DNA of 24,715 nucleotides from Caldilineales bacterium (GCA_038251215.1 JBBSBO010000001.1:1-24715), one strand, 5' to 3'. Numbered from the stretch's first letter, positions 2,398-24,715 are shown. Numbers and translations are program-made. The notes: generated by a model not told the origin, from the sequence alone.

Positions 2398-3195
2398 ATG
2401 ACCGCCAAGATCTATGTGTTTGCCAACCAGAAGGGCGGCGTCGCCAAGACCACGACCACGGTCAACCTGGGCGCCTATCTCACCGCGGCCGGACGGCGCA
2501 CCCTGGTGGTGGACATGGACCCGCAGGGCAACGCCACCACCAGCCTGGGCGTTGACCCGCGCTCACTCTCCCTCAGCCTCTACAATGTCCTCATCGACCA
2601 GATGCCCATCCAACAGGCCATCACGCTGACCGAGCGCGTGGGGCTGGACCTCGTGCCTTCCACCACGGACTTGGCCGGGGCGGAGGTGGAGATGGCGCGC
2701 ATGATGGCGCGCGAGCGGCTGCTGGATCGCGCCCTGCGCCCGCTGCTGGGCCTGTATGACTACATCCTCATCGACGAACCGCCCAGCCTGGGCCTGCTCA
2801 CCATCAACGGGCTGACGGCCTCCACCCACGGCGTCGTTATCCCTGTGCAGTGCGAATACCTGGCGCTCGAGGGCCTCAGCCTGCTATTGCAGACGATCCA
2901 ACAGGTGCGCGACGTGCTCAATGACCGCCTCGCCATCGCCGGCGTTGTACTCACCATGTTTGACAGCCGCACGAACTTGGCGCAGCAGGTGGTGCAGGAA
3001 GTGCGCCAGTACTTTCCCGGCGTCGTCTTCAAAACGATCATCCCGCGCAACATTCGCCTGAGCGAGGCGCCCAGCCACGGCCAAACCATTCTCAGCTACG
3101 CGCCCGCCAGCGCCGGCGCGCTCGCCTATCAGGCGCTAGCCGACGAGTTCATGCAGCGCGCCGAGCAGTCGGCGCCCAAACTGGTCAAGGCGTAG
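2398..3195 (+). CDS. parA: ParA/Soj chromosome-partitioning ATPase
   Basis: Deviant Walker A NQKGGVAKTTT, VDMDPQGNATTSLG, YDYILIDEPPSLG, VQCEYLALEG, IPRNIRLSEAPSHG. Confidence 0.95.
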   Translation: MTAKIYVFANQKGGVAKTTTTVNLGAYLTAAGRRTLVVDMDPQGNATTSLGVDPRSLSLSLYNVLIDQMPIQQAITLTERVGLDLVPSTTDLAGAEVEMARMMARERLLDRALRPLLGLYDYILIDEPPSLGLLTINGLTASTHGVVIPVQCEYLALEGLSLLLQTIQQVRDVLNDRLAIAGVVLTMFDSRTNLAQQVVQEVRQYFPGVVFKTIIPRNIRLSEAPSHGQTILSYAPASAGALAYQALADEFMQRAEQSAPKLVKA

Positions 3196-3286
3196 GTCAA
3201 CCACAACGGGCCGCACACACTAGGCCGCACACCACTTGTTGCGCTTATTTTGGGCTTATTGGCCGGCAGCCGAGGGGAGCATCCAC

Positions 3287-4255
3287 ATGGCAGACGAAAT
3301 CACCAGCAGCGGACACGGTAAGCGCTTTGGGTTGGGGCGCGGGCTGGGCGCGCTGATCATGAACACCGAGACGGCCTACCCGCCCAGCGAGGAAGTGACG
3401 GCGCAGGCCGCGGCGGGCGGCCTACGCCTGCTCCCCGTCGACGCCATCCAGCCAAACCCGCAGCAGCCGCGCACCCACTTTGACCCCGTCGCCCTGCAAG
3501 AGCTGGCGGATTCGATCCGCGCTCACGGCATTCTCCAGCCCCTGATCGTCACCGATAGCGCCGCCAATAGCGATGACGCGCCAGGCCGCTACTGGCTGAT
3601 CACGGGCGAGCGCCGCTGGCGCGCGGCCCAACTGGCGCAGCTGACCGAAGTGCCCGCCATCGTGCGCGAGGCCTCGCCGCAGCAACTGCTGGAGTGGGCC
3701 TTGGTCGAAAACGTCCAGCGCGCCGACCTCAACCCCCTGGAAGAAGCCGTCGCCTACCAGATGCTGACGGATACCTTCTTGCTCACGCAGGACGAAATCG
3801 GCCGCCGCGTGGGGCGCAGCCGCTCCGCCGTCGCCAACACCGTACGCCTCTTGCAGCTGCCCGTCGACCTGCAACATGCGGTGACCGATGGGCGCATCAG
3901 CGCCGGGCATGCCCGCGCCCTGCTCGCCCTGCCCGACGCCGAGGCCATGCGCGCCGCTCTGGCGCGCATCCTGGAACACGGCCTCAGCGTGCGCCAGACG
4001 GAAGAGATGGTCAAGCGCCTGCTCGCCACGCCCCAAGCCGCGGCCGAGCCGCAGCCCGAACTGCAAGCCGAAGCGGATGCCGAGGCCCATCTTCACTTCC
4101 TGGAGAGCCGTTTCCGCGCAGCCCTAGGCACGCGCGTCAGCCTCAACCGCAGCGCCAACGGGTCGGGTCGCCTGATCGTCCATTTCTACAGCGACGACGA
4201 CCTCGACAACCTCTACCGGCTGATCGCCGCCGACGCCGATGACGAGCCGGCTTGA
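3287..4255 (+). CDS. parB: ParB/Spo0J partitioning protein
   Basis: GLGRGLGALI (ParA-stimulating peptide), PNPQQPRTHF, ITGERRWRAA (CTP-binding GxRRxRA), ENVQRADLNPLEEA, HTH GRSRSAVANTVRLL. Start placed at ATG 3287 after GAGGGGAG rather than the TTG at 3236. Confidence 0.95.
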   Translation: MADEITSSGHGKRFGLGRGLGALIMNTETAYPPSEEVTAQAAAGGLRLLPVDAIQPNPQQPRTHFDPVALQELADSIRAHGILQPLIVTDSAANSDDAPGRYWLITGERRWRAAQLAQLTEVPAIVREASPQQLLEWALVENVQRADLNPLEEAVAYQMLTDTFLLTQDEIGRRVGRSRSAVANTVRLLQLPVDLQHAVTDGRISAGHARALLALPDAEAMRAALARILEHGLSVRQTEEMVKRLLATPQAAAEPQPELQAEADAEAHLHFLESRFRAALGTRVSLNRSANGSGRLIVHFYSDDDLDNLYRLIAADADDEPA

Positions 4256-4283
4256 GCCGCCGATCTCCCCGCTCGACCCTGCC

Positions 4284-5405
4284 ATGACTGATGCCGCGCT
4301 GCCTGCAATCGGCCCGCGCCACCGCGCCCTCGTCGGCGAAGAGACGCTGGGCTGGGCCATTGTCGGGGCCGGCGCCCAAGCCGCCCAGCACATCCTCCCC
4401 GCCATTCGCAACCAGGTCGACCTTCCCGCGCCCGATCTGCGTTATCCGCTGAGCAACGCCCGCATCGTCGGCGTCTTCAGCCGCAACGAGAACCGCGGCC
4501 GGAGCTTTGCCGAGGCCAATCACATCCCGCATAGCTTTGCCAACCTCGCCGACCTGCTGGCGCGATCCGATGTGCATTGTGTCTACGTCGGCGGGCACCC
4601 GCGCCACCACGCCCAGTCCACGCTGGCGGCGCTTGCCGCGGGCAAGCACGTGCTGGTCGAAACGCCGATGGCGCTGAATGTGGAAGATGCGCTAGCCATG
4701 GCGCACACCGCCGTCGGCCGCGGTCTGCTGCTCGCCGTCAACTACCATCGCCGGGCCGATGCCGCCCTGCAAGCCATGCAGCAACTGCTGGCGGAGGGCG
4801 AAATCGGCGACCTGCTGGGCGGGCGCATCGCCAATACGCCGTTGCTGCCGCCCGCGCTGCACACCTGGCGGCTGCGCGCCCCCGGCGGCGGCGTGATCTT
4901 CGACCACAGCGTCCACGACATCGACGTGCTGCGCTTCCTCCTGCGCGACGAGGTGCAGAGCGTGCAGGCAGCCAACACGCAGCATCTGCTCAGCGACGCC
5001 GTCGAAGAAGACGTCGTCGCCCACCTCACCCTACGCCGCAGCGGGCTGCTCGTGCAGTTGCACGACTCGTTCATCATCCCGCACGACGCCGGGGAGATTC
5101 GCCTGTTCGGCAGCACGGGAACGCTGGCGGCGCGCCACGCCTTTGTCGACGACACGCCCACCGAGTTATTCCTCGTGCGCCACGGAAGCGCCACGTCGAT
5201 CCCGGTGACGCCCATGCCCGCCTATGGCGCAGCCATCGCGCGCTTCCACGCCGCGGTGCGCGGCGATGCCCGGCCCCTCGCCGGCAGCGCCGACGGCATC
5301 TACAACCTGGCTGTCGCCCTCGCCTTGCACGAATCCATCCGGCGCACCCATCGCGTCCAGGTCGAGCTGCCCCTGCGCCCGCGCGACGACCTTTCCATCA
5401 GCTGA
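4284..5405 (+). CDS. Gfo/Idh/MocA-family oxidoreductase resembling 1,5-anhydro-D-fructose reductase; EKP motif reads ETP
   Basis: Rossmann WAIVGAGAQA, AAGKHVLVETPMA, WRLRAPGGGVIFDHSVHDIDVLRF. Start uncertain: ATG 4239 overlaps parB, so ATG 4284 was chosen. Confidence 0.8.
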   Translation: MTDAALPAIGPRHRALVGEETLGWAIVGAGAQAAQHILPAIRNQVDLPAPDLRYPLSNARIVGVFSRNENRGRSFAEANHIPHSFANLADLLARSDVHCVYVGGHPRHHAQSTLAALAAGKHVLVETPMALNVEDALAMAHTAVGRGLLLAVNYHRRADAALQAMQQLLAEGEIGDLLGGRIANTPLLPPALHTWRLRAPGGGVIFDHSVHDIDVLRFLLRDEVQSVQAANTQHLLSDAVEEDVVAHLTLRRSGLLVQLHDSFIIPHDAGEIRLFGSTGTLAARHAFVDDTPTELFLVRHGSATSIPVTPMPAYGAAIARFHAAVRGDARPLAGSADGIYNLAVALALHESIRRTHRVQVELPLRPRDDLSIS

Positions 5406-5478
5406 CGCTCCCCCTCGCCCCGCGGCATGCCCTATCTGTCGTCGCCATCCGCTGATTAACGTCTGCTGATTGCATTTA

Positions 5479-5507
5479 TGGAAATTTCCACCCATCTATG
5501 TTAAGAT
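5479..5507 (+). promoter_or_regulatory. Putative sigma70 promoter of the CarH-like gene
   Basis: TGGAAA (5479-5484), 17 bp spacer, TAAGAT (5502-5507) with extended -10 TG at 5499-5500. The -35 overlaps the palindrome TGGAAATTTCCA. Confidence 0.4.
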
Positions 5508-5538
5508 AGATCGTATAAACAATCTCTAGATCAATCTG

Positions 5539-6696
5539 GTGCAGACTGTCGACATAGCCGCCGAAATTGCGCTCATGACAGATTCAATGCCCGATTTGTT
5601 GTCCGGCTTATTGTCTGGCGAGGAAACTTTGAATACGAACATCCGACTTGGCGACTATGCTACCGCGCCGCTCTACAATATCAAGGCCGTTGTTCAGGCA
5701 ACCGACCTCAGCCCCAGCACGCTGCGTGCCTGGGAACGGCGCTATCACATGTGCCGGCCCCAGCGTTCCGACAGCGGTTATCGCCTCTACTCCGAGCGCG
5801 ACGTTGCCATCATTCGCTGGCTCAAAGCGCAGGTGGATGCGGGCATGTCGATCAGCCAGGCCGTGGCATGGATGGACTCCCTGGTCGTCGAGGTCGGCGG
5901 ACAGGACAACGCCATCTTACCCGGTGCCATGCGCAGCGCAGCGCAAAGCGAACACGTCAGCGTCCCGCCCGCCCCGCCGCAGCCGCGCGTGCGCCACTTC
6001 GCCGCCCTGCAAGAGGATCTGCTCGCCGCCCTGCTGGCCTTTGACGAACACGCAGCCGAACAAGTGATGGCCGAAGCCTTCTCCATGTACACGGTCGAAC
6101 AGATCGGCGAGCGGCTGATCCAACCGGTCATGGTCGAGATCGGCACGCGCTGGCACGACGGCGCGGTGAGCGTGGCGACCGAACACTTTGCCAGCAACTA
6201 CCTGCTGCAACGGTTGGCCGCGCTGCTGCGCACGCTGCCCAATGCAGCGGACGGCCCCACGTTGTGGGTGGGCTGCGCCCCCGGCGAACAACACGAAATC
6301 GGCGCGCTCCTGCTCAGCATCTACCTGCGCCGCGCCGGCTATTCTGTCCACTACCTGGGGCAAGGTCTCGACATCCCCGACACCGTACGCGAGGCCAAGT
6401 TGCAGCAGCCGGCACTCGTCCTCCTCAGCGCGTCGACGCAAGAGACGGCGCACGAGTTGAGCGCACTAACTTCCGCCCTGGCGGAGATTTCGCCGAGGCG
6501 CCCTCAAATCGGCTACGGCGGTCAGGCCTTCAAACGTTACCCGGAACTGCGCAACCAGATGACCGGCATCTACATGGGCAATTCGGCCGAAGAGGCGTTG
6601 GAGAGAATCCGCGAGTTGCTCTCCGGCAACGCGTTCGGCAAACATGCCGGCAACCATCACAACGGCAGTGCGCCCCACTCCGCCAACCCTGCCTAG
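5539..6696 (+). CDS. carH: MerR-family regulator with cobalamin-binding domain (CarH/LitR type)
   Basis: MerR HTH YNIKAVVQATDLSPSTLRAWERRY; W-x9-EH (WHDGAVSVATEH); E-x-H-x2-G-x41-S-x-S-x27-GG (EQHEIG...SAS...GG). Start uncertain (GTG 5539, ATG 5575 or ATG 5587). Confidence 0.85.
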   Translation: MQTVDIAAEIALMTDSMPDLLSGLLSGEETLNTNIRLGDYATAPLYNIKAVVQATDLSPSTLRAWERRYHMCRPQRSDSGYRLYSERDVAIIRWLKAQVDAGMSISQAVAWMDSLVVEVGGQDNAILPGAMRSAAQSEHVSVPPAPPQPRVRHFAALQEDLLAALLAFDEHAAEQVMAEAFSMYTVEQIGERLIQPVMVEIGTRWHDGAVSVATEHFASNYLLQRLAALLRTLPNAADGPTLWVGCAPGEQHEIGALLLSIYLRRAGYSVHYLGQGLDIPDTVREAKLQQPALVLLSASTQETAHELSALTSALAEISPRRPQIGYGGQAFKRYPELRNQMTGIYMGNSAEEALERIRELLSGNAFGKHAGNHHNGSAPHSANPA

Positions 6697-6737
6697 CCGA
6701 GCCATCTAGCCGCGAACCCGCTACCCGAGAATCTGCC

Positions 6738-7499
6738 ATGCACGCGCCGCTTTCCGCGCAGACCGGCTTCGCCGCCGAACTACATTCCGTCCACGAGCGC
6801 CTCGAGTCCGCTGCGGCTGAGCTTGGCTCTCCGCTCAGCGAATTGGTGCGTGCGCGTCTGCGCGCCGTGGCGCCCCCCCTGTCCGGCGCGCTGGTGCTGG
6901 CGGCGGCCTATGATGCGCAAGCCTCCGGCTCCGGCCTCGAGCATCGCATTGCCCTGGCTGCCGCTCTGGAAATGTTGAACGTGGCGCTGAGCGTACACCA
7001 GCTGCTCGTCTCGTCGGCCGCGGCCGCGCTGGACAAATCCTTTATCGGCAGCGCCATCCTCGCCGGCGACTACTGCTTTGGCCGTGCCGCGCGCCTCGCC
7101 GCCCAAACCGACAACCCGACCATTGTCATCCTCTTCTCGCAGGCCCTGCAAGACTTCAGCGAAGGCCATCTGCGCAGTTACTTCAACGCGGCGCCCGCCA
7201 CGCGCGACGGCATACCTGACGCCGTCCCCGAAGTCCCTCCCTTCGACGGACTCGCTATTCTGCTGCACTTCGGCGCGGCCGCAGCCCTGGAATTGTCGGA
7301 CCTCGCGCCGGACGCGCGCCAAACGGTGCGCGAACTGGCGGCGCGTCTTGCGGAGGCGCGCACGGCCGACGCGCCCCGCCGCGCTCCCGTGCCGTCGACT
7401 TGGCTCGACGACGATCTGCTCGCCTGTCTGCCCGCGGCCTATCAAGCGCGCTGGCGCGCGTTCGAGGCATGGCTGGCGGCCTCCGCGCCGGCGAGCTAA
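6738..7499 (+). CDS. Polyprenyl (trans-IPPS) synthase-like protein lacking Asp-rich catalytic motifs
   Basis: AAALEMLNVALSVHQLLV matches the ELIHxASLVHDD helix; SAILAGDYCFGRA matches AILxGD; FSQALQDFSEG follows. No DDxxD motif and no RRG loop. 253 aa from ATG 6738. Confidence 0.65.
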   Translation: MHAPLSAQTGFAAELHSVHERLESAAAELGSPLSELVRARLRAVAPPLSGALVLAAAYDAQASGSGLEHRIALAAALEMLNVALSVHQLLVSSAAAALDKSFIGSAILAGDYCFGRAARLAAQTDNPTIVILFSQALQDFSEGHLRSYFNAAPATRDGIPDAVPEVPPFDGLAILLHFGAAAALELSDLAPDARQTVRELAARLAEARTADAPRRAPVPSTWLDDDLLACLPAAYQARWRAFEAWLAASAPAS

Positions 7500-7772
7500 T
7501 CCCTTCCACGTTCTCAGTTTCTAGACTGCCTCGTCGCACGGGCGGCCCCGCCCTCGCGTGCCGCGCCTGCCTTTTCCCATGTTGCCCCACTCGTTTTGCC
7601 CAGCCCGTTTTGCCCAATATATATCCCCGCGTAAATACAATTCATACACTAGGCATATACCAATCTATGATTCGCACGCTAAAATAAGTCATATCGCTGC
7701 AAGGCAGCCTACAATTTGCCCAAGAGCAATGTTTGACACAGATCTTTTAAGGTGATGCTAATCAATTGGGGC

Positions 7773-7801
7773 TAGACAAAGCAGTCGAAGTGTGGTTTAA
7801 T
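7773..7801 (+). promoter_or_regulatory. Putative sigma70 promoter upstream of the Crp/Fnr gene
   Basis: TAGACA (7773-7778), 17 bp spacer, TTTAAT (7796-7801) with extended -10 TG at 7793-7794, in an AT-rich island. Confidence 0.6.
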
Positions 7802-8022
7802 CTGTGCATAATGTTTGAACAGGAAATTTCAACACCCTGTCCAAGCAAGCTTAGCGCAACAACTGTGCGCATCCGCTAAACCGATCAAAAACATGCGGCA
7901 ATCAACGTAGGATTGACGACCAGCAGTTGCGGCAGAGCGCACACATGCGCCGGCAGCCTAATGAATATGGGCTGATTGGAAGCTCGGTACGACACAGCTT
8001 CTTCAGAAAGGATCCATTGACC

Positions 8023-8754
8023 ATGGCACTTCACGCTCGCGAGTTTCAATCGGCTTCTCCCTCACCTTTCCTTTCACAAAACAACCGCAGCGGCGCCATT
8101 GGCCTGAACGGCGTGGCGCAGGCGCTGACCGCTCTGCGCGCGGACGATCCCGCCTTCAACAAGGTGATCAGCGTTAAGAACAGCGAGAAAGGCGCCATTA
8201 TCGCCACTACCGAAGACCTCGCCAGCAAAATGTACTTGCTGATGAGCGGCAAGGTCAACATGGTTTGCACCAACAACGAGGGGCGACGCTTGGTCATTGC
8301 CACTCTCGAACCCGGCGCCATCTTTGGCGAAGGCGCGCTGGATAATTCGGGCGACCCCAACGTCTTTGTCGAGGCCGCCGAAAAGGCCGCCCTGTGGGTC
8401 ATCCCCGCCGGCGAAGCGCGCAACATGACGATGCAATATCCCATCCTGGGCTGGGGGATGCTACAAACCTACGGCGAGCGCCTGTTGCAGGTGGAAAACA
8501 GCCTGGAGGACGTCGCGTACAAGAAGTTGCCCGAGCGCCTGGCGATGTTGCTGCTCGACCTGGGCAACAGCGAGAACGGCCTGATCAAGGGCGTCAGCCA
8601 CCAAGCGCTAGCTGACCACCTGGGCACCTATCGCGAGACCGTCAGCGCCATCCTGCGCGACTTCAAACGCCAGCAGCTAGTCGAACTCGGCTACCGGCGC
8701 ATCACCCTGCTGGACGTCGAATCGCTCAAGGACATTGCGGGCATCTGGGACTAA
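8023..8754 (+). CDS. Crp/Fnr-family transcriptional regulator
   Basis: cNMP-like barrel MYLLMSGKVNM...LEPGAIFGEGAL and C-terminal HTH VSHQALADHLGTYRETVSAIL. GAAAGGA upstream of ATG 8023. Confidence 0.9.
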   Translation: MALHAREFQSASPSPFLSQNNRSGAIGLNGVAQALTALRADDPAFNKVISVKNSEKGAIIATTEDLASKMYLLMSGKVNMVCTNNEGRRLVIATLEPGAIFGEGALDNSGDPNVFVEAAEKAALWVIPAGEARNMTMQYPILGWGMLQTYGERLLQVENSLEDVAYKKLPERLAMLLLDLGNSENGLIKGVSHQALADHLGTYRETVSAILRDFKRQQLVELGYRRITLLDVESLKDIAGIWD

Positions 8755-8782
8755 TCGCTCGCTCGGGCAGACAGGCAGCAAA

Positions 8783-8830
8783 AGATGGGAGTGGTGAGAT
8801 TGGGGCAGGTTCATCTCGCCGCTCCCGTCT
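8783..8830 (+). other. 18-bp RNA hairpin 3' of the Crp/Fnr gene
   Basis: AGATGGGAGTGGTGAGAT, 12-nt loop, ATCTCGCCGCTCCCGTCT. Fully paired on the + strand with 3 G-U pairs; no adjacent U-tract. Confidence 0.6.
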
Positions 8831-8958
8831 ATGCAAAAGGACTTTTCTCGCACTTTGCTTGGCCGTGGAACCACCACGCGAGCCGCTGCGTTGCACATAT
8901 TGCATACGACAACCTGCGCGCAGATCTGGCGGCTCAGCATTTCTAATTTGATTCCTAG

Positions 8959-8987
8959 TTGACGCCAACGCCAAGCGTTGCTATAAT
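8959..8987 (+). promoter_or_regulatory. Near-consensus sigma70 promoter upstream of rho
   Basis: TTGACG (8959-8964), 17 bp spacer, TATAAT (8982-8987) with extended -10 TG at 8979-8980. Confidence 0.8.
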
Positions 8988-9722
8988 GGGTTGAATCGTC
9001 AGAGACCTCAGTCCATGCCTGCTACCCACAGCGCGTCTGTATCGTTATGGTTATCCGCTCAATGCCGTGCGCTTTTCGGCCAACCCGCCGGACGGCGCAA
9101 ACCTACGCAGATGGGCCTGGACGATGATAGGGTCAAGGATTGGGCCAACTAATCAGGGTAGACAGCCTGCCGCGACACAGCCGTGGCCTGTCGAATGGGC
9201 GACGGAAGTATAGTTCGTCGAGTATGCCAACGTTTTTCCTGCCGATTGCCGGCGCCCCGCTTGTTCCATCAACTGCATGCCGTTTGGCAGCGATGACGCT
9301 TGCCGCTGTCAAACCTAACTAGTCAAATCTAACTAACCCGACCTTCCTGTGTCTTCCGCCGGTCTCGGCCAACGAACGCAGCGCAGGCGCCTCCAACAGC
9401 CCGCACCCGTTGACAACAATGCATCGACAACAAGACATTGCAGGCTCCACTTCACACACGTGAAATTGTCCAAACTTTGTTTGGACCTTGCGTGTATTCC
9501 ACGGCACATGGTCAGCGATTCGCCCTTTGTCTAGACTGAACAGAAGCGCAACCCATCTTTTAGCCATGTGACTTCAACATCTATCTTCAACCATCTAGCT
9601 TCATACCTAGCCATAATTGAAGACCTATTTTTATTGCATAGCGTTTGCTGTCCCAGCATTCAAGGTGTAAGCCCGCATTCATTTCCTCATATGGGAAGCG
9701 ATATCGCGAAGGAAGAAAAGAA

Positions 9723-10994
9723 ATGACAGACCAACAGTTCGGCACGATGACAATCTCACAGATGGATGCTCTGAACCTGGATGAGCTGCGCGAGATTGCC
9801 CGCTCTATGGGCATCACCGGCTACACGCGCCTGAAAAAATACGACCTGATGATGCGCCTGCTGCGCGCCAGCGCCGAAAACCAAGGCTATATCTTCGGCG
9901 GCGGCACGCTCGAAATCGTGCAAGACGGCATCGGCTTTCTGCGCAGCGAATATCTGCTCCCCGGCGATGAAGATGTCTATGTCAGCCAAAGCCAGATTCG
10001 CCGCTTCGGCTTGCGCACCGGCGACTTTGTCGTAGGACAAGTGCGCCCGCCGAAGGAAACCGAAAAGTACCACGGCCTGCTCAAGGTCGAAGCCGTCAAC
10101 AGCCTCGACCCCGAAGAAGCCAAGCGCCGGCCCATCTTTGAAAAGCTCACCCCCATTTTTCCCAACCAGCTGATCCAACTGGAAACGCGCGCCAACATCA
10201 TCTCCACGCGCATGATCGACCTGCTCGCCCCCATCGGGCGTGGCCAGCGCGGCCTCATCGTCAGCCCGCCCAAAGCCGGCAAAACGACCATCCTCAAGCG
10301 CATTGCCAACGGCATCACCGCCAACTACCAGGACATGCACCTGATGGTCGTGCTCATCGGCGAGCGCCCCGAAGAGGTGACGGACATGGACCGCTCGGTC
10401 GACGCCGAGGTGGTGAGCAGCACCTTCGACGAGCCGGTGCAGAACCACGTGCGCGTCGCCGAGATGGCGCTCGAGCGCGCCAAGCGCCTGGTCGAGAGCG
10501 AGAAGGATGTGGTCATCCTGCTCGACAGCATCACCCGCCTGTCGCGCGCCTACAACCTGACGGTCCCCCCTTCCGGGCGCACGCTCTCCGGCGGCATCGA
10601 CCCGGCGGCGCTCTACCCGCCCAAACGCTTCTTCGGCGCCGCGCGCAAGATCGAAGAAGGCGGCAGCCTCACCATCATCGCCACCACGCTGGTCGACACG
10701 GGCAGCCGCATGGACGACGTCATCTACGAGGAGTTCAAGGGCACGGGCAACATGGAGCTGCACCTCAACCGCAAGCTCTCGGAGCGCCGCATCTTCCCCG
10801 CCTTCGACATTGAGCGCAGCGGCACGCGCGCCGAAGAGAAGCTGCTGGACGCCGAAACCCTGGCGAAGGTCTACACCTTGCGCCGCATGATCGACGCCAT
10901 GGGCGGCGGCAGCGAAGCCCTGCTGCCCATCATCGAGCGCCTGAGCCGCACACGCGACAACCGCGAGTTCCTGGAGACGCTGACCAAGCGCTAG
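9723..10994 (+). CDS. rho: Transcription termination factor Rho
   Basis: Rho_[25 protein letters not shown]-binding GIGFLRS and [14 protein letters not shown], Walker [32 protein letters not shown]. Purine-rich RBS before ATG 9723. Confidence 0.97.
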
Positions 10995-11311: not shown

Positions 11312-11405
11312 TGTGCCCCTGCGTGCAGGTGAACGTCCTCCTAGCCAGTGATTGGCCGGACCTCGCCGCCCCAATAGGAAGCTGACTATATGGAGATCAG
11401 AATCT

Positions 11406-12749
11406 ATGTCATCCAACGGTGACTCGGCGTTCGGAGACGCGACGGCCTCAGGTTGGCTCTCCAGTCTTCGCCCCGGCAGAACGCAAACGTCTTCGCTGAC
11501 GCAAACGTCTTCTGTAGGAGGAGTAACGTCCGGTTCGTTCGAGACAACCAGCATTTCTGCCTCGTCCATCGACCGCCTGCCCTTCGGCGTGTCTCTTCCC
11601 CGCCCAGCCATAGCGCAAAGCGCCGTCCTGCCTCGCACGGCAGCGAGCGAGCGCCCGGCATGGTCTTTCCCGCTCTTCGATGCGGCGAGCGACCTGCTGC
11701 AAAACCAGGTACGGCGTCTACTCGCCGACCAGGTGACGCCCTTGCGCCTTGCCAGCCATCTCTCCGTCTTGGGGGTGGCCGCACTCATTCTCATCCTGAG
11801 CCAAATTGACATTCCCAACTGGAATTTTACGCTGCGCGTGCTGCCCAACCGCGCCATGCTGAGCGCCAATCATCTTAGCGGCGGCGCCTATGCCGCTACC
11901 GGCGGCCTGGGCAACAACCCGTCCGGCGTACTTATTTCCAACAATGAATCGTTGCAGCGCGCCGCCATCCCCTTCACCATCGTCGGCGAAGAACCCCAAC
12001 AGGAAATCCAATACTACACCGTGCGGCCCGGCGACACGATCCTGGCGATTGCCGAGAGATTCAGCCTGCAACCGGAAACGGTACAGTGGTCCAACGCCGG
12101 CCTGGAGGCCAACGCCGACCTGATCCGCCCGGGCGACCAGCTGCGCATTTTGCCGGTCAACGGCGCGCTGCATGTTGTCAACTCCGGCGACACGCTTTCT
12201 TCCCTGGCGAACAAGTACAAAGTCGCGATGGAAGACATCGTAGGCTATCTGCCCAACGGCCTCGAGGACGTCTCGGCCCCCCTCACGATCGGGCAAGAGA
12301 TGGTCATCCCCGGCGGCACCAAGCCCTTCGTGCAACAACAGGTCTTCGCCTACGCGGGCGTAGCGCCTTCCAGCGCCAAGCTGGGCTCCGGCTCGTTTGA
12401 GTGGCCCGCCAGCGGCTCCATCAGCCAACGCTTCTGGGGCGGCCATGCCGCCATCGACATTGGCGGGTGGACAGGCGCGGATGTCAAGGCTGCGGACTCC
12501 GGCTACGTGGCGCTGGCAGCCGGCGGGTGGAACGGCGGCTACGGCAATCATGTCATCGTCGACCACGGCAACGGCTTCGTCACGCTCTACGCTCACCTCA
12601 ACAGCATCTATGTGCAGGCGGGCGAAAGCGTCGCGCGCGGGCAAGCGGTGGGCAGCTTGGGCAATACCGGCAACAGCACCGGCCCTCATCTCCATTTCGA
12701 GATCCGCTATCAAGGCGTGCCGCGCAACCCGCTGAGCTATCTGCCCTAG
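11406..12749 (+). CDS. Membrane-anchored LysM-LysM-M23 peptidoglycan endopeptidase
   Basis: One TM segment (SHLSVLGVAALILILSQI); LysM repeats YYTVRPGDTILAIAERF and HVVNSGDTLSSLANKY; M23 motifs HAAID, TLYAHL, GNTGNSTGPHLHFEI. GGAG upstream of ATG 11406. Confidence 0.9.
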   Translation: MSSNGDSAFGDATASGWLSSLRPGRTQTSSLTQTSSVGGVTSGSFETTSISASSIDRLPFGVSLPRPAIAQSAVLPRTAASERPAWSFPLFDAASDLLQNQVRRLLADQVTPLRLASHLSVLGVAALILILSQIDIPNWNFTLRVLPNRAMLSANHLSGGAYAATGGLGNNPSGVLISNNESLQRAAIPFTIVGEEPQQEIQYYTVRPGDTILAIAERFSLQPETVQWSNAGLEANADLIRPGDQLRILPVNGALHVVNSGDTLSSLANKYKVAMEDIVGYLPNGLEDVSAPLTIGQEMVIPGGTKPFVQQQVFAYAGVAPSSAKLGSGSFEWPASGSISQRFWGGHAAIDIGGWTGADVKAADSGYVALAAGGWNGGYGNHVIVDHGNGFVTLYAHLNSIYVQAGESVARGQAVGSLGNTGNSTGPHLHFEIRYQGVPRNPLSYLP

Positions 12750-23937: not shown

Positions 23938-24055
23938 AGTTGGCGATGACCTACTCTCGCATGCAGTTGCCCGCATACTACCATCGGCGCTGGCGGGCTT
24001 AACTTCCGGGTTCGGGATGGAGCCGGGTGTACCCCCGCCGCTTCTATCACCAACA
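23938..24055 (-). rRNA. rrf: 5S rRNA
   Basis: Minus strand TGTTGGTGAT...GGTACACCCGGCTCCATCCCGAACCCGGAAGTTAAGC...CGCCGATGGTAGT...GAGAGTAGGTCATCGCCAAC; terminal helix pairs. Ends are approximate to a few nt. Confidence 0.97.
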
Positions 24056-24321
24056 CACCGCCTCGCCGTCTTTTTCAGGTTAGCTCGCCCGCACAGCGTA
24101 TCAGTCGGGCCGTTACAGCCTCGCCGATGCACCGGGGCGTCACCCTCGAGACGCTTGGGTGTGTCGCATTTATTGCTTTGTTAAGCAGCTCTGTTAATTC
24201 GAGCTGTTAAGCTGCGCGCCTGGCGTTGGCACGCCGGCGTTCGCACGCTAAAAACTGATTAGGATTAGGTTCTTCACAGTTGCTACAATCTGACTCGTTC
24301 CACTGATATAAGTCGTAGTGT

Positions 24322-24715
<394 letters not shown>

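What the first reader, a model, noticed from the sequence alone, without database searches (positions are those of the whole stretch)
5539..8754. Putative light/B12-isoprenoid regulatory module: CarH, dead prenyl synthase, cAMP-independent Crp
The three genes are co-directional; carH and the prenyl-synthase-like gene are only 41 bp apart. In Thermus thermophilus, light-induced carotenoid genes are controlled jointly by LitR/CarH and a neighbouring cAMP-independent Crp/Fnr activator (LdrP). The same regulator pair appears here, but with a pseudo-prenyltransferase instead of crtB/photolyase. The hypothesis is a variant circuit linking light to isoprenoid (carotenoid or quinone) chain synthesis. 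I cannot tell from sequence alone whether this is already described.
Basis: inference. Interest (0 to 1): 0.7.

Follow-up and report, generated by a model that had tools for sequence, protein, structure and literature searches.

The report
CarH, dead prenyl synthase, Crp block
In a Caldilineaceae (Chloroflexota) genome, a real vitamin-B12 light sensor (CarH) and a Crp-type regulator probably form a Thermus-like light cascade, while the catalytically dead prenyl-synthase gene between them is a core, clade-specific gene that probably pairs with the active long-chain prenyl synthase and is kept in genomes that have no light sensor.

Summary
All three genes are real and co-directional, but the "one light–isoprenoid module" reading is only partly supported.

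**carH1** (5629-6696) has every CarH signature.

**ippsL** (6738-7499) has a trans-prenyl-synthase fold and lacks both Asp-rich motifs.
- It occurs in 120 of 121 genomes of this GTDB family. No copy was found in 300 other Chloroflexota genomes.
- It persists in genomes that have no CarH at all.
- A complex model pairs it with the genome's active long-chain synthase through the standard dimer interface. This resembles the eukaryotic D-less subunit Dlp1/PDSS2 and Bacillus HepS.

**Distribution of carH1.** A CarH1-type gene was found in only 26 of 61 family genomes. It was directly upstream of ippsL in all 19 cases that could be checked.

**A second CarH.** The same genome carries a longer paralogue (CarH2) divergent from crtB. 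That is the classic carotenoid light switch.

**crp** (8023-8754) has its own strongly conserved promoter.
- Its link to LdrP is a weak reciprocal best hit.
- A TGCAAA-type element just after the -10 box is shared with the carH1 promoter and the carH2-crtB region. It is lost or decayed in two CarH-less genomes.
- This suggests, but does not show, CarH control of crp.

Verdict: a new variant of known kinds, of moderate interest.

The parts
5499..5507 (+). carH1 promoter, extended -10 box (TGTTAAGAT; family consensus TGTGCTAAGAT)
   Evidence: Conserved across about 29 orthologous upstream regions. Retained directly in front of ippsL in G037, where carH1 is deleted.
5508..5556 (+). Conserved element downstream of the carH1 -10 box; candidate CarH operator. 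In other genera it reads TTGCAAAAG...GCAATCTGTAGAC or GTACAA-N3-TTGTAC.
   Evidence: Alignment. TGCAAA is found in 29% of de-duplicated carH1 promoters against 5% in shuffles. It is degenerate in the window's own genus. Binding was not tested.
5629..6696 (+). carH1: AdoCbl-type CarH/LitR photoreceptor-repressor (355 aa from TTG 5629)
   Evidence: Pfam MerR_1, B12-binding_2 and B12-binding. TtCarH 5C8D at E 2e-33, with the Wx9EH and ExH motifs aligned. NCBIfam CarH model is the top hit at 159.7 bits, below its equivalog cut-off of 400.
6738..7499 (+). ippsL: motif-less, C-terminally shortened paralogue of long-chain trans-prenyl diphosphate synthase (253 aa)
   Evidence: Homologues are all from Chloroflexota/Caldilineaceae sources. 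The alignment shows neither Asp-rich motif. AF2 model pLDDT 92. Foldseek best matches are long-chain trans-IPPS at TM about 0.6. Profile against PDB sequences: octaprenyl/solanesyl synthases at E 3e-8. Found in 120 of 121 family genomes. Outside the family only true synthases were hit.
7630..7685 (+). Conserved upstream promoter-like block 'P2' (…GCTAAAAT as -10) between ippsL and crp
   Evidence: Conserved block CTAACA…TCTAATC…TGCTAAAAT across genera. Kept upstream of crp in G019, where crp has moved away from ippsL.
7747..7761 (+). Palindrome upstream of the crp P1 -35 box (TTAAGGTGATGCTAA; ATGAGA-N4-TCTCAT in most genera); candidate CRP/FNR-type site
   Evidence: Seen by eye in the promoter alignment, at a fixed distance of about 10-11 nt from the -35 box. 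Function is inferred only.
7773..7801 (+). crp promoter P1: TAGACA - 17 nt - TTTAAT, preceded by TGG (extended -10)
   Evidence: Conserved in most orthologous loci. The longest metatranscriptome contig of a relative lines up from about 7801/7822 onwards (a weak hint).
7802..7822 (+). Element directly after the P1 -10 box (CTGTGCATAATGTTTGAACAG; AATTGCAAAGGTTTTGCAC in most genera, i.e. TTGCA repeated at 11 bp); candidate CarH operator
   Evidence: TGCAAA is found in 80% of crp P1 regions against 5% in shuffles. The variants change in step with those at the carH1 promoter: the TGTAC type in L007, L008, L027, L037 and L045, the TTGCAAA type in the others. It is retained in CarH2-only genomes, absent in CarH-less G019 and decayed in G027.
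7818..7841 (+). Inverted repeat AACAGG…CCTGTC at the start of the crp leader (specific to the window's genus)
   Evidence: Perfect hairpins at the same place in L021 and L022. Not followed further.
8023..8754 (+). crp: CRP/FNR-family regulator (243 aa) with no Arg in the phosphate-binding cassette and recognition helix RETVSAILRD
   Evidence: Pfam. PDB sequence search: NtcA 1e-15, Thermus CRP 6e-15, SdrP 1e-13, TTHB099 5e-11. NCBIfam top hit is LdrP at 53.9 bits, cut-off 300. Orthologues are 64-85% identical.

Best explanation
The stretch holds two functional units that sit together in one subclade of the Caldilineaceae.

**Unit A: a light cascade of the Thermus LitR to LdrP kind.**
- CarH1 is an AdoCbl photoreceptor-repressor. 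It represses its own promoter in the dark.
- CarH1, or its paralogue CarH2, also binds a related TGCAAA/TGTACA-type repeat directly after the -10 box of the separately promoted crp gene. This step is inferred.
- Light would therefore raise the level of a ligand-independent CRP/FNR regulator.
- The carotenoid switch itself is the second paralogue, CarH2, which lies divergent to crtB on another contig.

**Unit B: ippsL, a core gene of the family.**
- It is a duplicate of the long-chain (HepT/solanesyl-type) trans-prenyl diphosphate synthase that lost both Asp-rich motifs and its C-terminal third.
- It kept the helix E/F dimer interface.
- It most likely forms a heteromer with the active long-chain synthase as a non-catalytic partner. 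The analogues are Dlp1/PDSS2 and HepS.
- Where carH1 is present, ippsL is transcribed with it and so would be boosted by light. Its function does not depend on CarH.

**Shown:** gene identities and motifs; distribution; operon spacing; conserved promoters and the shared hexamer.

**Inferred:** which protein binds the shared element; the light response; heteromer formation and its effect.
For: **CarH1 is a genuine CarH.**

**A second CarH sits beside carotenoid genes.** CarH2 is divergent to crtB, with an epimerase and an FAD oxidase downstream, in the window's own genome. The divergent pairing recurs in 20 of 30 family loci.

**Promoters are conserved, and one hexamer is shared.**
- Both the carH1 and the crp P1 promoters are conserved.
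- In an unbiased hexamer count, TGCAAA is the top hexamer shared by three promoter sets:
  - carH1 promoters: 29% against 5% in shuffles.
  - crp P1: 80% against 5%.
  - carH2-crtB intergenic regions: 68% against 17%.
- Operator variants at carH1 and crp change together between genera.
- P1 and its repeats are kept in genomes that have only CarH2. They are absent in CarH-less G019 and decayed in CarH-less G027.

**Crp and LdrP are reciprocal best hits, narrowly.**

**ippsL is a dead paralogue of the long-chain synthase.**
- Fold and sequence point to long-chain IPPS.
- Both Asp-rich motifs are absent.
- It is present in 120 of 121 family genomes.
- Outside the family only true synthases were hit.

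**The complex model supports pairing with the active synthase (G000:C289).**
- ipSAE 0.81, best of 3 controls 0.00.
- The runs agree in at least 92% of contacts. Partner pLDDT is at least 82.
- The pass mark was reached by 58 of 80 solved complexes and 2 of 110 mismatched pairs. These counts hold only roughly, because my own alignment was used.
- The predicted interface (residues 103-149) contains all ten invariant residues from G110 to R146.

**Links to HepS/HepT.**
- C289 scores almost equally as solanesyl synthase and as HepT component II.
- No HepS gene was found. The only faint PF07307 hits in relatives fall on ippsL itself.

**Co-transcription of carH1 and ippsL.**
- The gap between the genes runs from -4 to 60 bp.
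- One RNA-library contig of a relative bridges the junction (weak).
Against: - No binding or expression experiment exists for any step.
- The shared element does not fit the published CarH repeat nAnnTnnACAn (PMC8156234) cleanly. It also reads as a palindrome (TGCAAA-N3-TTTGCA), so Crp itself or a third factor could bind it.
- In the window's own genus the element is degenerate.
- The two CarH-less genomes that lack an intact P1 are also the ones where crp has moved, and there are only two of them.
- The LdrP relation rests on margins of 1-2 bits.
- The complex model may pass only because solved prenyl-synthase dimers look alike. It cannot tell a heterodimer from an ippsL homodimer.
- A housekeeping partner subunit placed behind a dark-repressed promoter is awkward, unless basal or read-through transcription is enough.
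Confidence: 0.5

Rival explanations
1. Inherited juxtaposition only. The three genes are functionally unrelated neighbours in a conserved origin-proximal block. CarH1 regulates itself and targets elsewhere. ippsL is a housekeeping partner, or another helical protein. Crp is a global regulator that does not respond to light. The shared TGCAAA element is a general promoter-proximal feature or the site of another factor.
For: - The whole block jag-pfkB-parA-parB-GFO-…-rho-M23-fumC is syntenic.
- ippsL follows parB directly in the largest genus.
- Crp orthologues of 64-71% identity persist in CarH-less genomes.
- Crp is far better conserved (64-85%) than CarH1 (48-73%) or ippsL (37-56%), as expected of a global regulator.
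- The element does not match the CarH repeat consensus cleanly.
Against: - TGCAAA is enriched 4- to 16-fold in exactly the three CarH-related promoter sets.
- Its variants change in step at the carH1 and crp promoters.
- P1 with the repeats is lost or decayed where CarH is absent.
- The CarH + CRP/FNR pairing has a worked-out precedent in Thermus, as seen in pTB1.
Confidence: 0.25
2. This is one dedicated circuit in which light (CarH1) and Crp jointly control isoprenoid chain synthesis. The dead prenyl synthase is the effector: it retunes prenyl-diphosphate flux or chain length towards carotenoids or quinones when light comes on.
For: - carH1 is always directly upstream of ippsL where both coordinates are known (19 of 19).
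- The spacing is operon-like.
- The carH1-type promoter is kept in front of ippsL after carH1 was deleted in G037.
- The model supports ippsL pairing with the active synthase (with the caveats given above).
Against: - ippsL is universal in the family, while a CarH1-type gene is in only 26 of 61 genomes.
- ippsL is retained in genomes with no CarH and without crp beside it.
- carH1 decayed in G018 while ippsL stayed intact.
- The canonical carotenoid switch is CarH2-crtB, elsewhere in the genome.
Confidence: 0.2
3. ippsL is a ligand sensor or anti-repressor. A prenyl-synthase-fold protein binds an isoprenoid and modulates CarH1 or Crp directly, in the way CarS acts on CarA/CarH in Myxococcus.
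For: It lies between two transcription factors. A precedent exists for isoprenoid-diphosphate-sensing regulators of carotenogenesis: CrtR, per the abstract of PMC5401885.
Against: - The Mg-binding Asp motifs and most diphosphate-binding basic residues are gone.
- The protein persists without CarH and without an adjacent Crp.
- The invariant residues between positions 110 and 146 map to the dimer interface of the complex model.
Confidence: 0.05

Closest known systems
Thermus thermophilus/brockianus LitR (CarH) - LdrP light-inducible cluster
   Same: An AdoCbl CarH-family repressor and a CRP/FNR regulator are encoded co-directionally. The Crp is the reciprocal best hit of LdrP. Both share an RE(T/S)VS recognition helix. 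A crtB gene divergent from a CarH gene exists in the same genome. An NDUFA9/epimerase-like gene follows the regulator(s) in both.
   Different: - In Thermus litR and ldrP overlap in one operon next to crtB-phr.
- Here there are two CarH paralogues.
- The crtB-linked paralogue has no Crp beside it.
- The Crp-linked paralogue is separated from crp by ippsL and about 520 bp that hold crp's own promoters.
- The Crp is 243 aa, with a 50-aa N-terminal extension, and only about 31% identical to LdrP.
- It is far below the LdrP equivalog cut-off.
Dlp1/PDSS2, the 'D-less' subunit of eukaryotic decaprenyl diphosphate synthase (PMC4049637)
   Same: A paralogue of a long-chain trans-prenyl diphosphate synthase that lacks the Asp-rich motifs. 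It is proposed to work as the partner of the catalytic subunit.
   Different: This one is bacterial, restricted to one Chloroflexota family, about 80 residues shorter, and an independent origin. The heteromer is only modelled. Whether it is required for activity is unknown.
Bacillus HepS/HepT (heptaprenyl diphosphate synthase components I and II) and Micrococcus HexA/HexB
   Same: A small non-catalytic helical subunit of about 250 aa is paired with a HepT-like catalytic subunit. The genome's active synthase scores 228.5 bits on the HepT model. Fifteen of 31 ippsL members give faint PF07307 hits.
   Different: No ippsL member reaches the PF07307 cut-off. ippsL is clearly closer to the catalytic subunits themselves. 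It is not encoded next to the catalytic gene.
Plant GPPS small subunits / GGPPS-related proteins
   Same: Catalytically inactive prenyl-synthase paralogues that heterodimerise with an active one and change its product or activity (from established knowledge).
   Different: Those are short-chain enzymes in plastids. There is no sequence relationship beyond the shared fold, and none was tested here.

Membership tests
CarH/LitR AdoCbl photoreceptor-repressors | N-terminal MerR-type winged-helix DNA-binding domain | tested here: met
   PF13411 at E 3e-15 and PF00376 at E 4e-9. Aligns to the TtCarH DNA-binding domain.
CarH/LitR AdoCbl photoreceptor-repressors | Four-helix-bundle cap with the Wx9EH motif over the upper ligand | tested here: met
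   GTRWHDGAVSVATEHFAS aligned to GEAWHRGEIGVAEEHLAS of 5C8D.
CarH/LitR AdoCbl photoreceptor-repressors | Rossmann B12-binding domain with ExH providing the lower axial His | tested here: met
   PGEQHEIGA aligned to PGERHEIGA. PF02310 at E 2e-11.
CarH/LitR AdoCbl photoreceptor-repressors | Operator made of tandem 11-bp direct repeats nAnnTnnACAn overlapping the promoter | tested here: inconclusive
   Conserved elements abut the -10 box and contain TGTAC/TTGCA cores, in places 11 bp apart. They fit the published consensus (PMC8156234) only partly.
CarH/LitR AdoCbl photoreceptor-repressors | AdoCbl-dependent tetramer that dissociates in light | not testable with these tools
   Needs protein biochemistry.
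trans-Isoprenyl diphosphate synthases (PF00348), catalytic | First Asp-rich motif DDx2-4D | tested here: not met
   Replaced by S/N-V/I-H-x-L-L in all 31 aligned members. The genome's true enzyme has LVHDDVID.
trans-Isoprenyl diphosphate synthases (PF00348), catalytic | Second Asp-rich motif DDxxD | tested here: not met
   The region is absent. The protein ends about 80 residues early, with a family-specific RWxAxxxW helix.
trans-Isoprenyl diphosphate synthases (PF00348), catalytic | All-helical prenyl-synthase fold | tested here: met
   AF2 pLDDT 92. Foldseek best matches are 3mzv, 9jqs, 3wjk and 3aqb at TM 0.53-0.66.
trans-Isoprenyl diphosphate synthases (PF00348), catalytic | Pfam gathering score | tested here: not met
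   17.3 bits against a cut-off of 27 for the window protein. Thirty of 31 members match at E up to 1, best 6e-8.
Non-catalytic partner subunits of heteromeric long-chain synthases (Dlp1/PDSS2, HepS type) | Lacks catalytic Asp motifs while a complete catalytic long-chain synthase is encoded in the same genome | tested here: met
   Nearly every family genome has both genes.
Non-catalytic partner subunits of heteromeric long-chain synthases (Dlp1/PDSS2, HepS type) | Physical heteromer with the catalytic subunit | tested here: inconclusive
   Complex model ipSAE 0.81 against a best control of 0.00, contacts agreeing in at least 92%, partner pLDDT at least 82. Solved look-alike dimers exist, so this shows likeness, not binding.
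Non-catalytic partner subunits of heteromeric long-chain synthases (Dlp1/PDSS2, HepS type) | Sequence membership in HepS (PF07307) | tested here: not met
   Best E 8.7e-4, about 19 bits against a cut-off of 30.
Non-catalytic partner subunits of heteromeric long-chain synthases (Dlp1/PDSS2, HepS type) | Required for, or modifies, synthase activity | not testable with these tools
   Needs an enzyme assay or genetics.
LdrP (light-induced CRP/FNR activator of Thermus) | Orthology to LdrP | tested here: inconclusive
   Reciprocal best hit, but by thin margins: 60.8 against 59.3 bits, and NF052518 at 53.9 bits against a cut-off of 300 with NtcA at 52.3. In the PDB search, TTHB099 ranks below NtcA, Thermus CRP and SdrP.
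LdrP (light-induced CRP/FNR activator of Thermus) | Encoded with a CarH/LitR gene | tested here: met
   In 26 of the 30 best ippsL loci, carH1 and crp flank ippsL. crp is not adjacent in genera g15, g9 and g10.
LdrP (light-induced CRP/FNR activator of Thermus) | Works without cAMP | tested here: inconclusive
   The Arg-Ser/Thr of the phosphate-binding cassette is absent in all orthologues aligned. Absence of another ligand cannot be shown.
LdrP (light-induced CRP/FNR activator of Thermus) | Light-induced through CarH/LitR, and activates crtB and neighbours | not testable with these tools
   Only cis-element hints are available.

The most novel reading that the evidence does not exclude
In the carH1-bearing Caldilineaceae, light acts through CarH1 to raise the level of a D-less prenyl-synthase subunit. 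That subunit heterodimerises with the menaquinone side-chain synthase and retunes its activity or chain length, or frees FPP/GGPP for carotenoids. This would be a light-gated regulatory subunit of isoprenoid chain elongation, running in parallel with a CarH to Crp transcriptional cascade.
Probability: 0.15. Interest if true: 0.7.

Novelty: new variant of a known kind. Interest (0 to 1): 0.45.

Why it matters
The work has three consequences if it holds.

1. It defines an unannotated or mis-annotated protein family. Sources call its members 'hypothetical' or 'octaprenyl-diphosphate synthase'. The family is a bacterial counterpart of the eukaryotic D-less prenyl-synthase subunit: it arose by duplication of the catalytic subunit and is fixed in one whole Chloroflexota family. 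If the heteromer is real, these genomes make their quinone side chain with a two-subunit enzyme of independent origin. Automatic annotation then over-counts active prenyl synthases.

2. It extends the CarH + CRP/FNR light cascade, known from Thermus, to the Chloroflexota. Here the architecture uses two CarH paralogues and offers concrete promoter elements to test.

3. It shows that the attractive 'three-gene module' is largely inherited synteny. That is a caution for neighbourhood-based inference.

Tried and rejected
- **Rfam scan of the whole window.** Only 5S and 23S rRNA at the far end were found. Nothing was found in the ippsL-crp or crp-rho spacers.
- **Simple terminator scan of 5350-9700.** No hit, so it stays unresolved whether transcription from carH1-ippsL ends before crp. 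The promoter scan misses crp P1 because of its rule that position 2 of the -10 box must be A.
- **Matching nAnnTnnACAn by eye to the conserved elements.** Only partial fits were found, so I did not claim CarH repeats.
- **A 'GGAAATTT' motif.** It occurs upstream of carH1, in the crp leader and in the carH2-crtB spacer of this genome. In the crp leader it is part of a genus-specific hairpin, and it is not conserved elsewhere. I dropped it.
- **Metatranscriptome contigs.**
  - The runs hold only relatives, 85-95% alike, and all come from one wastewater study.
  - The parts without cover (6880-7790) say nothing.
  - The contigs cannot show transcript ends or expression levels.
- **In-frame TGA inside many genus g15 ippsL matches.** On inspection it is simply the natural stop codon, read through by the profile. 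These are not pseudogenes.
- **Genus g2 (G001/G002).** The Crp-like gene after ippsL is only 23-26% identical by blastp (26-29% in the whole-genome search), and its upstream region is not comparable. I did not use it for the operator argument.
- **Tests not run.** A CarH1-ippsL interaction was not run, because the single complex job went to the ippsL-synthase pair. A genome-wide regulon scan with the TGCAAA repeat was not run: about 5-10 chance hits are expected per genome, and the relatives are not annotated.

Full report
**What is in the window**

The + strand carries these genes in order:

| Gene | Coordinates |
|---|---|
| jag | 343-1251 |
| pfkB-like kinase | 1399-2343 |
| parA | 2398-3195 |
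| parB | 3236-4255 |
| GFO/IDH/MocA oxidoreductase | 4239-5405 |
| CarH-like gene | see below |
| short prenyl-synthase-like gene (ippsL) | 6738-7499 |
| CRP/FNR gene | see below |
| rho | 9645-10994 |
| LysM/M23 peptidase | 11352-12749 |

The window is one whole 24.7-kb contig of an 899-contig, 85%-complete metagenome-assembled genome. Named homologues of ippsL come from Caldilineaceae and other Chloroflexota bins.

**Checking the observation**

*CarH.* The CarH-like protein has MerR_1, B12-binding_2 and B12-binding domains. It matches Thermus CarH structures at E about 1e-33. The Wx9EH cap motif and the ExH cobalt ligand align exactly. Orthologous loci share the Shine-Dalgarno sequence GAGGAAAC followed by the start codon. 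The start is therefore most likely TTG 5629, not GTG 5539.

It hits Pfam polyprenyl_synt only below threshold. An alignment of 31 homologues shows 'VHxLL' in place of the first DDxxD motif. There is no second motif at all, and the C-terminus is shortened and family-specific. The predicted structure is confident (pLDDT 92). Its best structural matches are long-chain trans-prenyl synthases. A profile search of PDB sequences gives octaprenyl, solanesyl and decaprenyl synthases at E 3e-8 to 2e-7. 'Dead prenyl synthase' is therefore correct.

*Crp.* The third gene is a CRP/FNR regulator, most likely starting at ATG 8023. Its phosphate-binding cassette has no Arg in any orthologue aligned. This fits the claim that it does not bind cAMP, but does not prove it.

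**Is the trio syntenic, and what does that mean?**

- Every homologue context I fetched holds ippsL in the same place in a long syntenic block: jag-pfkB-parA-parB-GFO-carH-ippsL-crp-rho-M23-fumC.
- Among the 30 best ippsL loci from whole genomes, 26 keep carH1 upstream and 28 keep crp downstream.
- The even sample of the family gives a different picture:
  - ippsL is in 120 of 121 genomes and all 25 genera.
  - A CarH1-type gene is in only 26 of 61 genomes.
  - It is directly upstream of ippsL in all 19 cases where both coordinates were listed.
- carH1 has been lost in several ways:
  - G018 keeps only a decayed fragment plus three tandem repeats of about 95 bp between GFO and ippsL.
  - G037 has no carH1 but keeps the carH1-type promoter directly before ippsL.
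  - G019 has GFO overlapping ippsL.
  - In the largest genus the order is parA-parB-ippsL, with no GFO, no carH1 and no crp beside it.
- Three genomes have no CarH at all yet keep ippsL:
  - G001 is complete and has no B12-binding_2 domain anywhere.
  - G019 and G027 have only a MerR-less corrinoid protein.
- Outside the family, 300 Chloroflexota genomes gave only true synthases: frames of 320-400 aa, matched only over the first 190-200 profile positions.

ippsL is therefore a clade-defining core gene. The trio is a feature of one subclade.

**The genome's other CarH**

Searching the window's own genome for SQS_PSY and B12-binding_2 found both on contig C260. There a second, longer CarH paralogue (about 486 aa, Wx9EH and ExH present) lies divergent from crtB. 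An epimerase/DUF1731 gene and an FAD/amine-oxidase gene follow it. The carH2-crtB divergent pair recurs in 20 of 30 family loci. CarH2 is present in genomes that lack carH1: G037, G114, G018 and G077.

Thermus LitR is slightly closer to CarH2 (107 bits) than to CarH1 (94 bits). The canonical light switch for carotenoids is thus CarH2-crtB. The window's copy is an extra paralogue.

**Crp and LdrP**

- By PDB sequence search the Crp is about equally distant from NtcA, Thermus CRP, SdrP and TTHB099.
- Among 72,556 plasmids, the top-ranked hit is the CRP/FNR gene that overlaps a MerR (LitR) gene next to crtB-phr on the Thermus brockianus megaplasmid. That is the LdrP locus.
- That LdrP's best hit in this genome is the window Crp: 60.8 bits, against 59.3, 53.1 and 43.1 for three paralogues.
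- NCBIfam ranks the LdrP model first at 53.9 bits. NtcA follows at 52.3, and the cut-off is 300.
- The recognition helices are alike: RETVSAILRD against RESVSKLLSD.

This is a weak reciprocal best hit. It is compatible with an LdrP-like role but falls well short of showing it.

**Promoters**

*carH1.* The promoter is conserved: an extended -10 box TGTGCTAAGAT, followed by TTGCAAAAG…GCAATCTGTAGAC, or by GTACAA-N3-TTGTAC in some genera.

*crp.* The gene has its own architecture, read from upstream to downstream:
- a conserved upstream promoter-like block (P2);
- a palindrome, ATGAGA-N4-TCTCAT in most genera and TTAAG-N5-CTTAA in the window's genus;
- a strong promoter P1 (TAGACA-17-TGGTTAAAT);
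- directly after the -10 box, AATTGCAAAGGTTTTGCAC, which is TTGCA repeated at 11 bp and also readable as TGCAAA-N3-TTTGCA.

The genera that have TGTACAGG at crp also have TGTAC at carH1.

*The shared hexamer.* I counted hexamers in de-duplicated sets, without choosing a motif in advance. TGCAAA/TTTGCA was the top hexamer common to three sets:

| Promoter set | With TGCAAA | In shuffles |
|---|---|---|
| carH1 promoters | 29% | 5% |
| crp P1 regions | 80% | 5% |
| carH2-crtB spacers | 68% | 17% |

In the carH2-crtB spacers the element sits 4 nt upstream of the carH2 -35 box. In one genus it lies beside three 11-bp direct repeats.

*Where CarH is missing.* P1 with its repeats survives in genomes that have only CarH2. 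In CarH-less G019, crp keeps the P2 block but has no P1. In CarH-less G027 only a decayed copy remains.

*Reading.* Taken together, this suggests that crp P1 belongs to a CarH regulon, as ldrP does in Thermus. The caveats:
- the element fits the published CarH repeat nAnnTnnACAn (PMC8156234) only partly;
- it can be read as a palindrome that Crp could bind;
- only two CarH-less genomes could be compared;
- nothing was measured.

**What ippsL probably does**

- The genome has two intact synthases:
  - a long-chain one on C289 (DDVID and DDILD present), which scores 230 bits as solanesyl synthase and 228.5 bits as HepT component II;
  - a short-chain one on C97.
- The ippsL profile hits C289 at E 7e-26. 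The segment [36 protein letters not shown] of C289 is plainly homologous to GDYCFGRAARLAAQTDNPTIVILFSQALQDFSEGHLR of ippsL.
- The ten invariant residues of the family between G110 and R146 lie in this helix E/F block.
- A complex model of ippsL with the C289 enzyme passed:
  - ipSAE 0.81, best of three controls 0.00;
  - contacts agree in at least 92% of cases, and partner pLDDT is at least 82;
  - the pass mark was reached by 58 of 80 solved complexes and 2 of 110 mismatched pairs, counts that hold only roughly because my own alignment was used;
  - the interface is ippsL 103-149 against the equivalent helices of the enzyme.
- Many prenyl-synthase dimers are solved, so this shows that the dimer interface is preserved. 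It does not show that this pair binds, and it cannot exclude an ippsL homodimer.
- No HepS gene was found in 26 relatives. The only faint PF07307 hits fall on ippsL itself, and 15 of 31 members give such sub-threshold hits.
- The closest functional analogues are Dlp1/PDSS2, the 'D-less' partner of decaprenyl diphosphate synthase (PMC4049637), and HepS/HexA.

I therefore read ippsL as a non-catalytic partner of the long-chain synthase, at moderate confidence.

**Expression hints**

Metatranscriptome contigs from one wastewater study, from relatives 85-95% alike, cover three parts of the stretch:
- crp, from about 7801/7822 onwards, next to the predicted P1 start;
- the 5' part of carH1, from about 5530;
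- in one case, the carH1-ippsL junction (6595-6781).

These are contigs from a single study and may include DNA, so they are weak hints only.

**Verdict**

ippsL, however, is not a stand-in for crtB and is not tied to light. It is a core, clade-specific dead paralogue that happens to lie, in one subclade, in the carH1 operon. This is a new variant of known kinds, of moderate interest. The most novel reading still open is a light-gated regulatory subunit of chain elongation, at about 15%.

Noticed in passing
G000 contig C260 (locus L017 2198-3655 minus strand; crtB 3994-4887 plus strand): A second, longer CarH paralogue (about 486 aa, with a C-terminal extension of about 170 aa of unknown function) lies divergent from crtB. 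An epimerase/DUF1731 gene and an FAD oxidase gene follow it. The extension is conserved in the family (matches reach about residue 455 of the query).
   Followed up: partly
window 7630-7685: A conserved promoter-like block (CTAACA…TCTAATC…TGCTAAAAT) lies about 110-300 nt upstream of crp P1, followed by a short hairpin in several genera. It could be a second crp promoter or the start of a small RNA. Rfam finds nothing there.
   Followed up: partly
window 8959-8987 and 8988-9644: A near-consensus promoter (TTGACG-17-TATAAT with TG) lies about 660 nt upstream of rho, with no long ORF between. It suggests a long rho leader.
   Followed up: no
L065 (G018) about 5900-6200: Where carH1 should be, only a short CarH-like fragment remains, followed by three tandem copies of a unit of about 95 bp (AAAGTGGGCTCTGTTTGAAAACAG…). 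This looks like gene decay with a repeat insertion.
   Followed up: no
L068-L073, carH2-crtB spacers: Three tandem 11-bp direct repeats (TCCAGAnnnnn) lie between the back-to-back -35 boxes of carH2 and crtB in one genus. The number and period match CarH operators, but the sequence does not match the published consensus.
   Followed up: partly
window 7818-7841: An inverted repeat AACAGG…CCTGTC lies at the start of the crp leader. Sister genomes (L021, L022) have perfect 12-bp-arm hairpins at the same place. It is specific to the window's genus.
   Followed up: no
window 8023-8170: The family's Crp proteins carry a variable, low-complexity N-terminal extension of about 50 residues, followed by a conserved helix (QxLTALRxEDPAFxKVI). 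LdrP and other CRP/FNR proteins lack both.
   Followed up: no
window 23938-24054 and 24321-24715 (minus strand): A 5S rRNA gene and the 3' end of a 23S rRNA gene lie at the contig end (Rfam).
   Followed up: no
window 4239-4255: The GFO/IDH/MocA gene overlaps the end of parB. In G019 its end overlaps ippsL. In genomes without carH1, parB-GFO-ippsL may therefore be one transcription unit.
   Followed up: no
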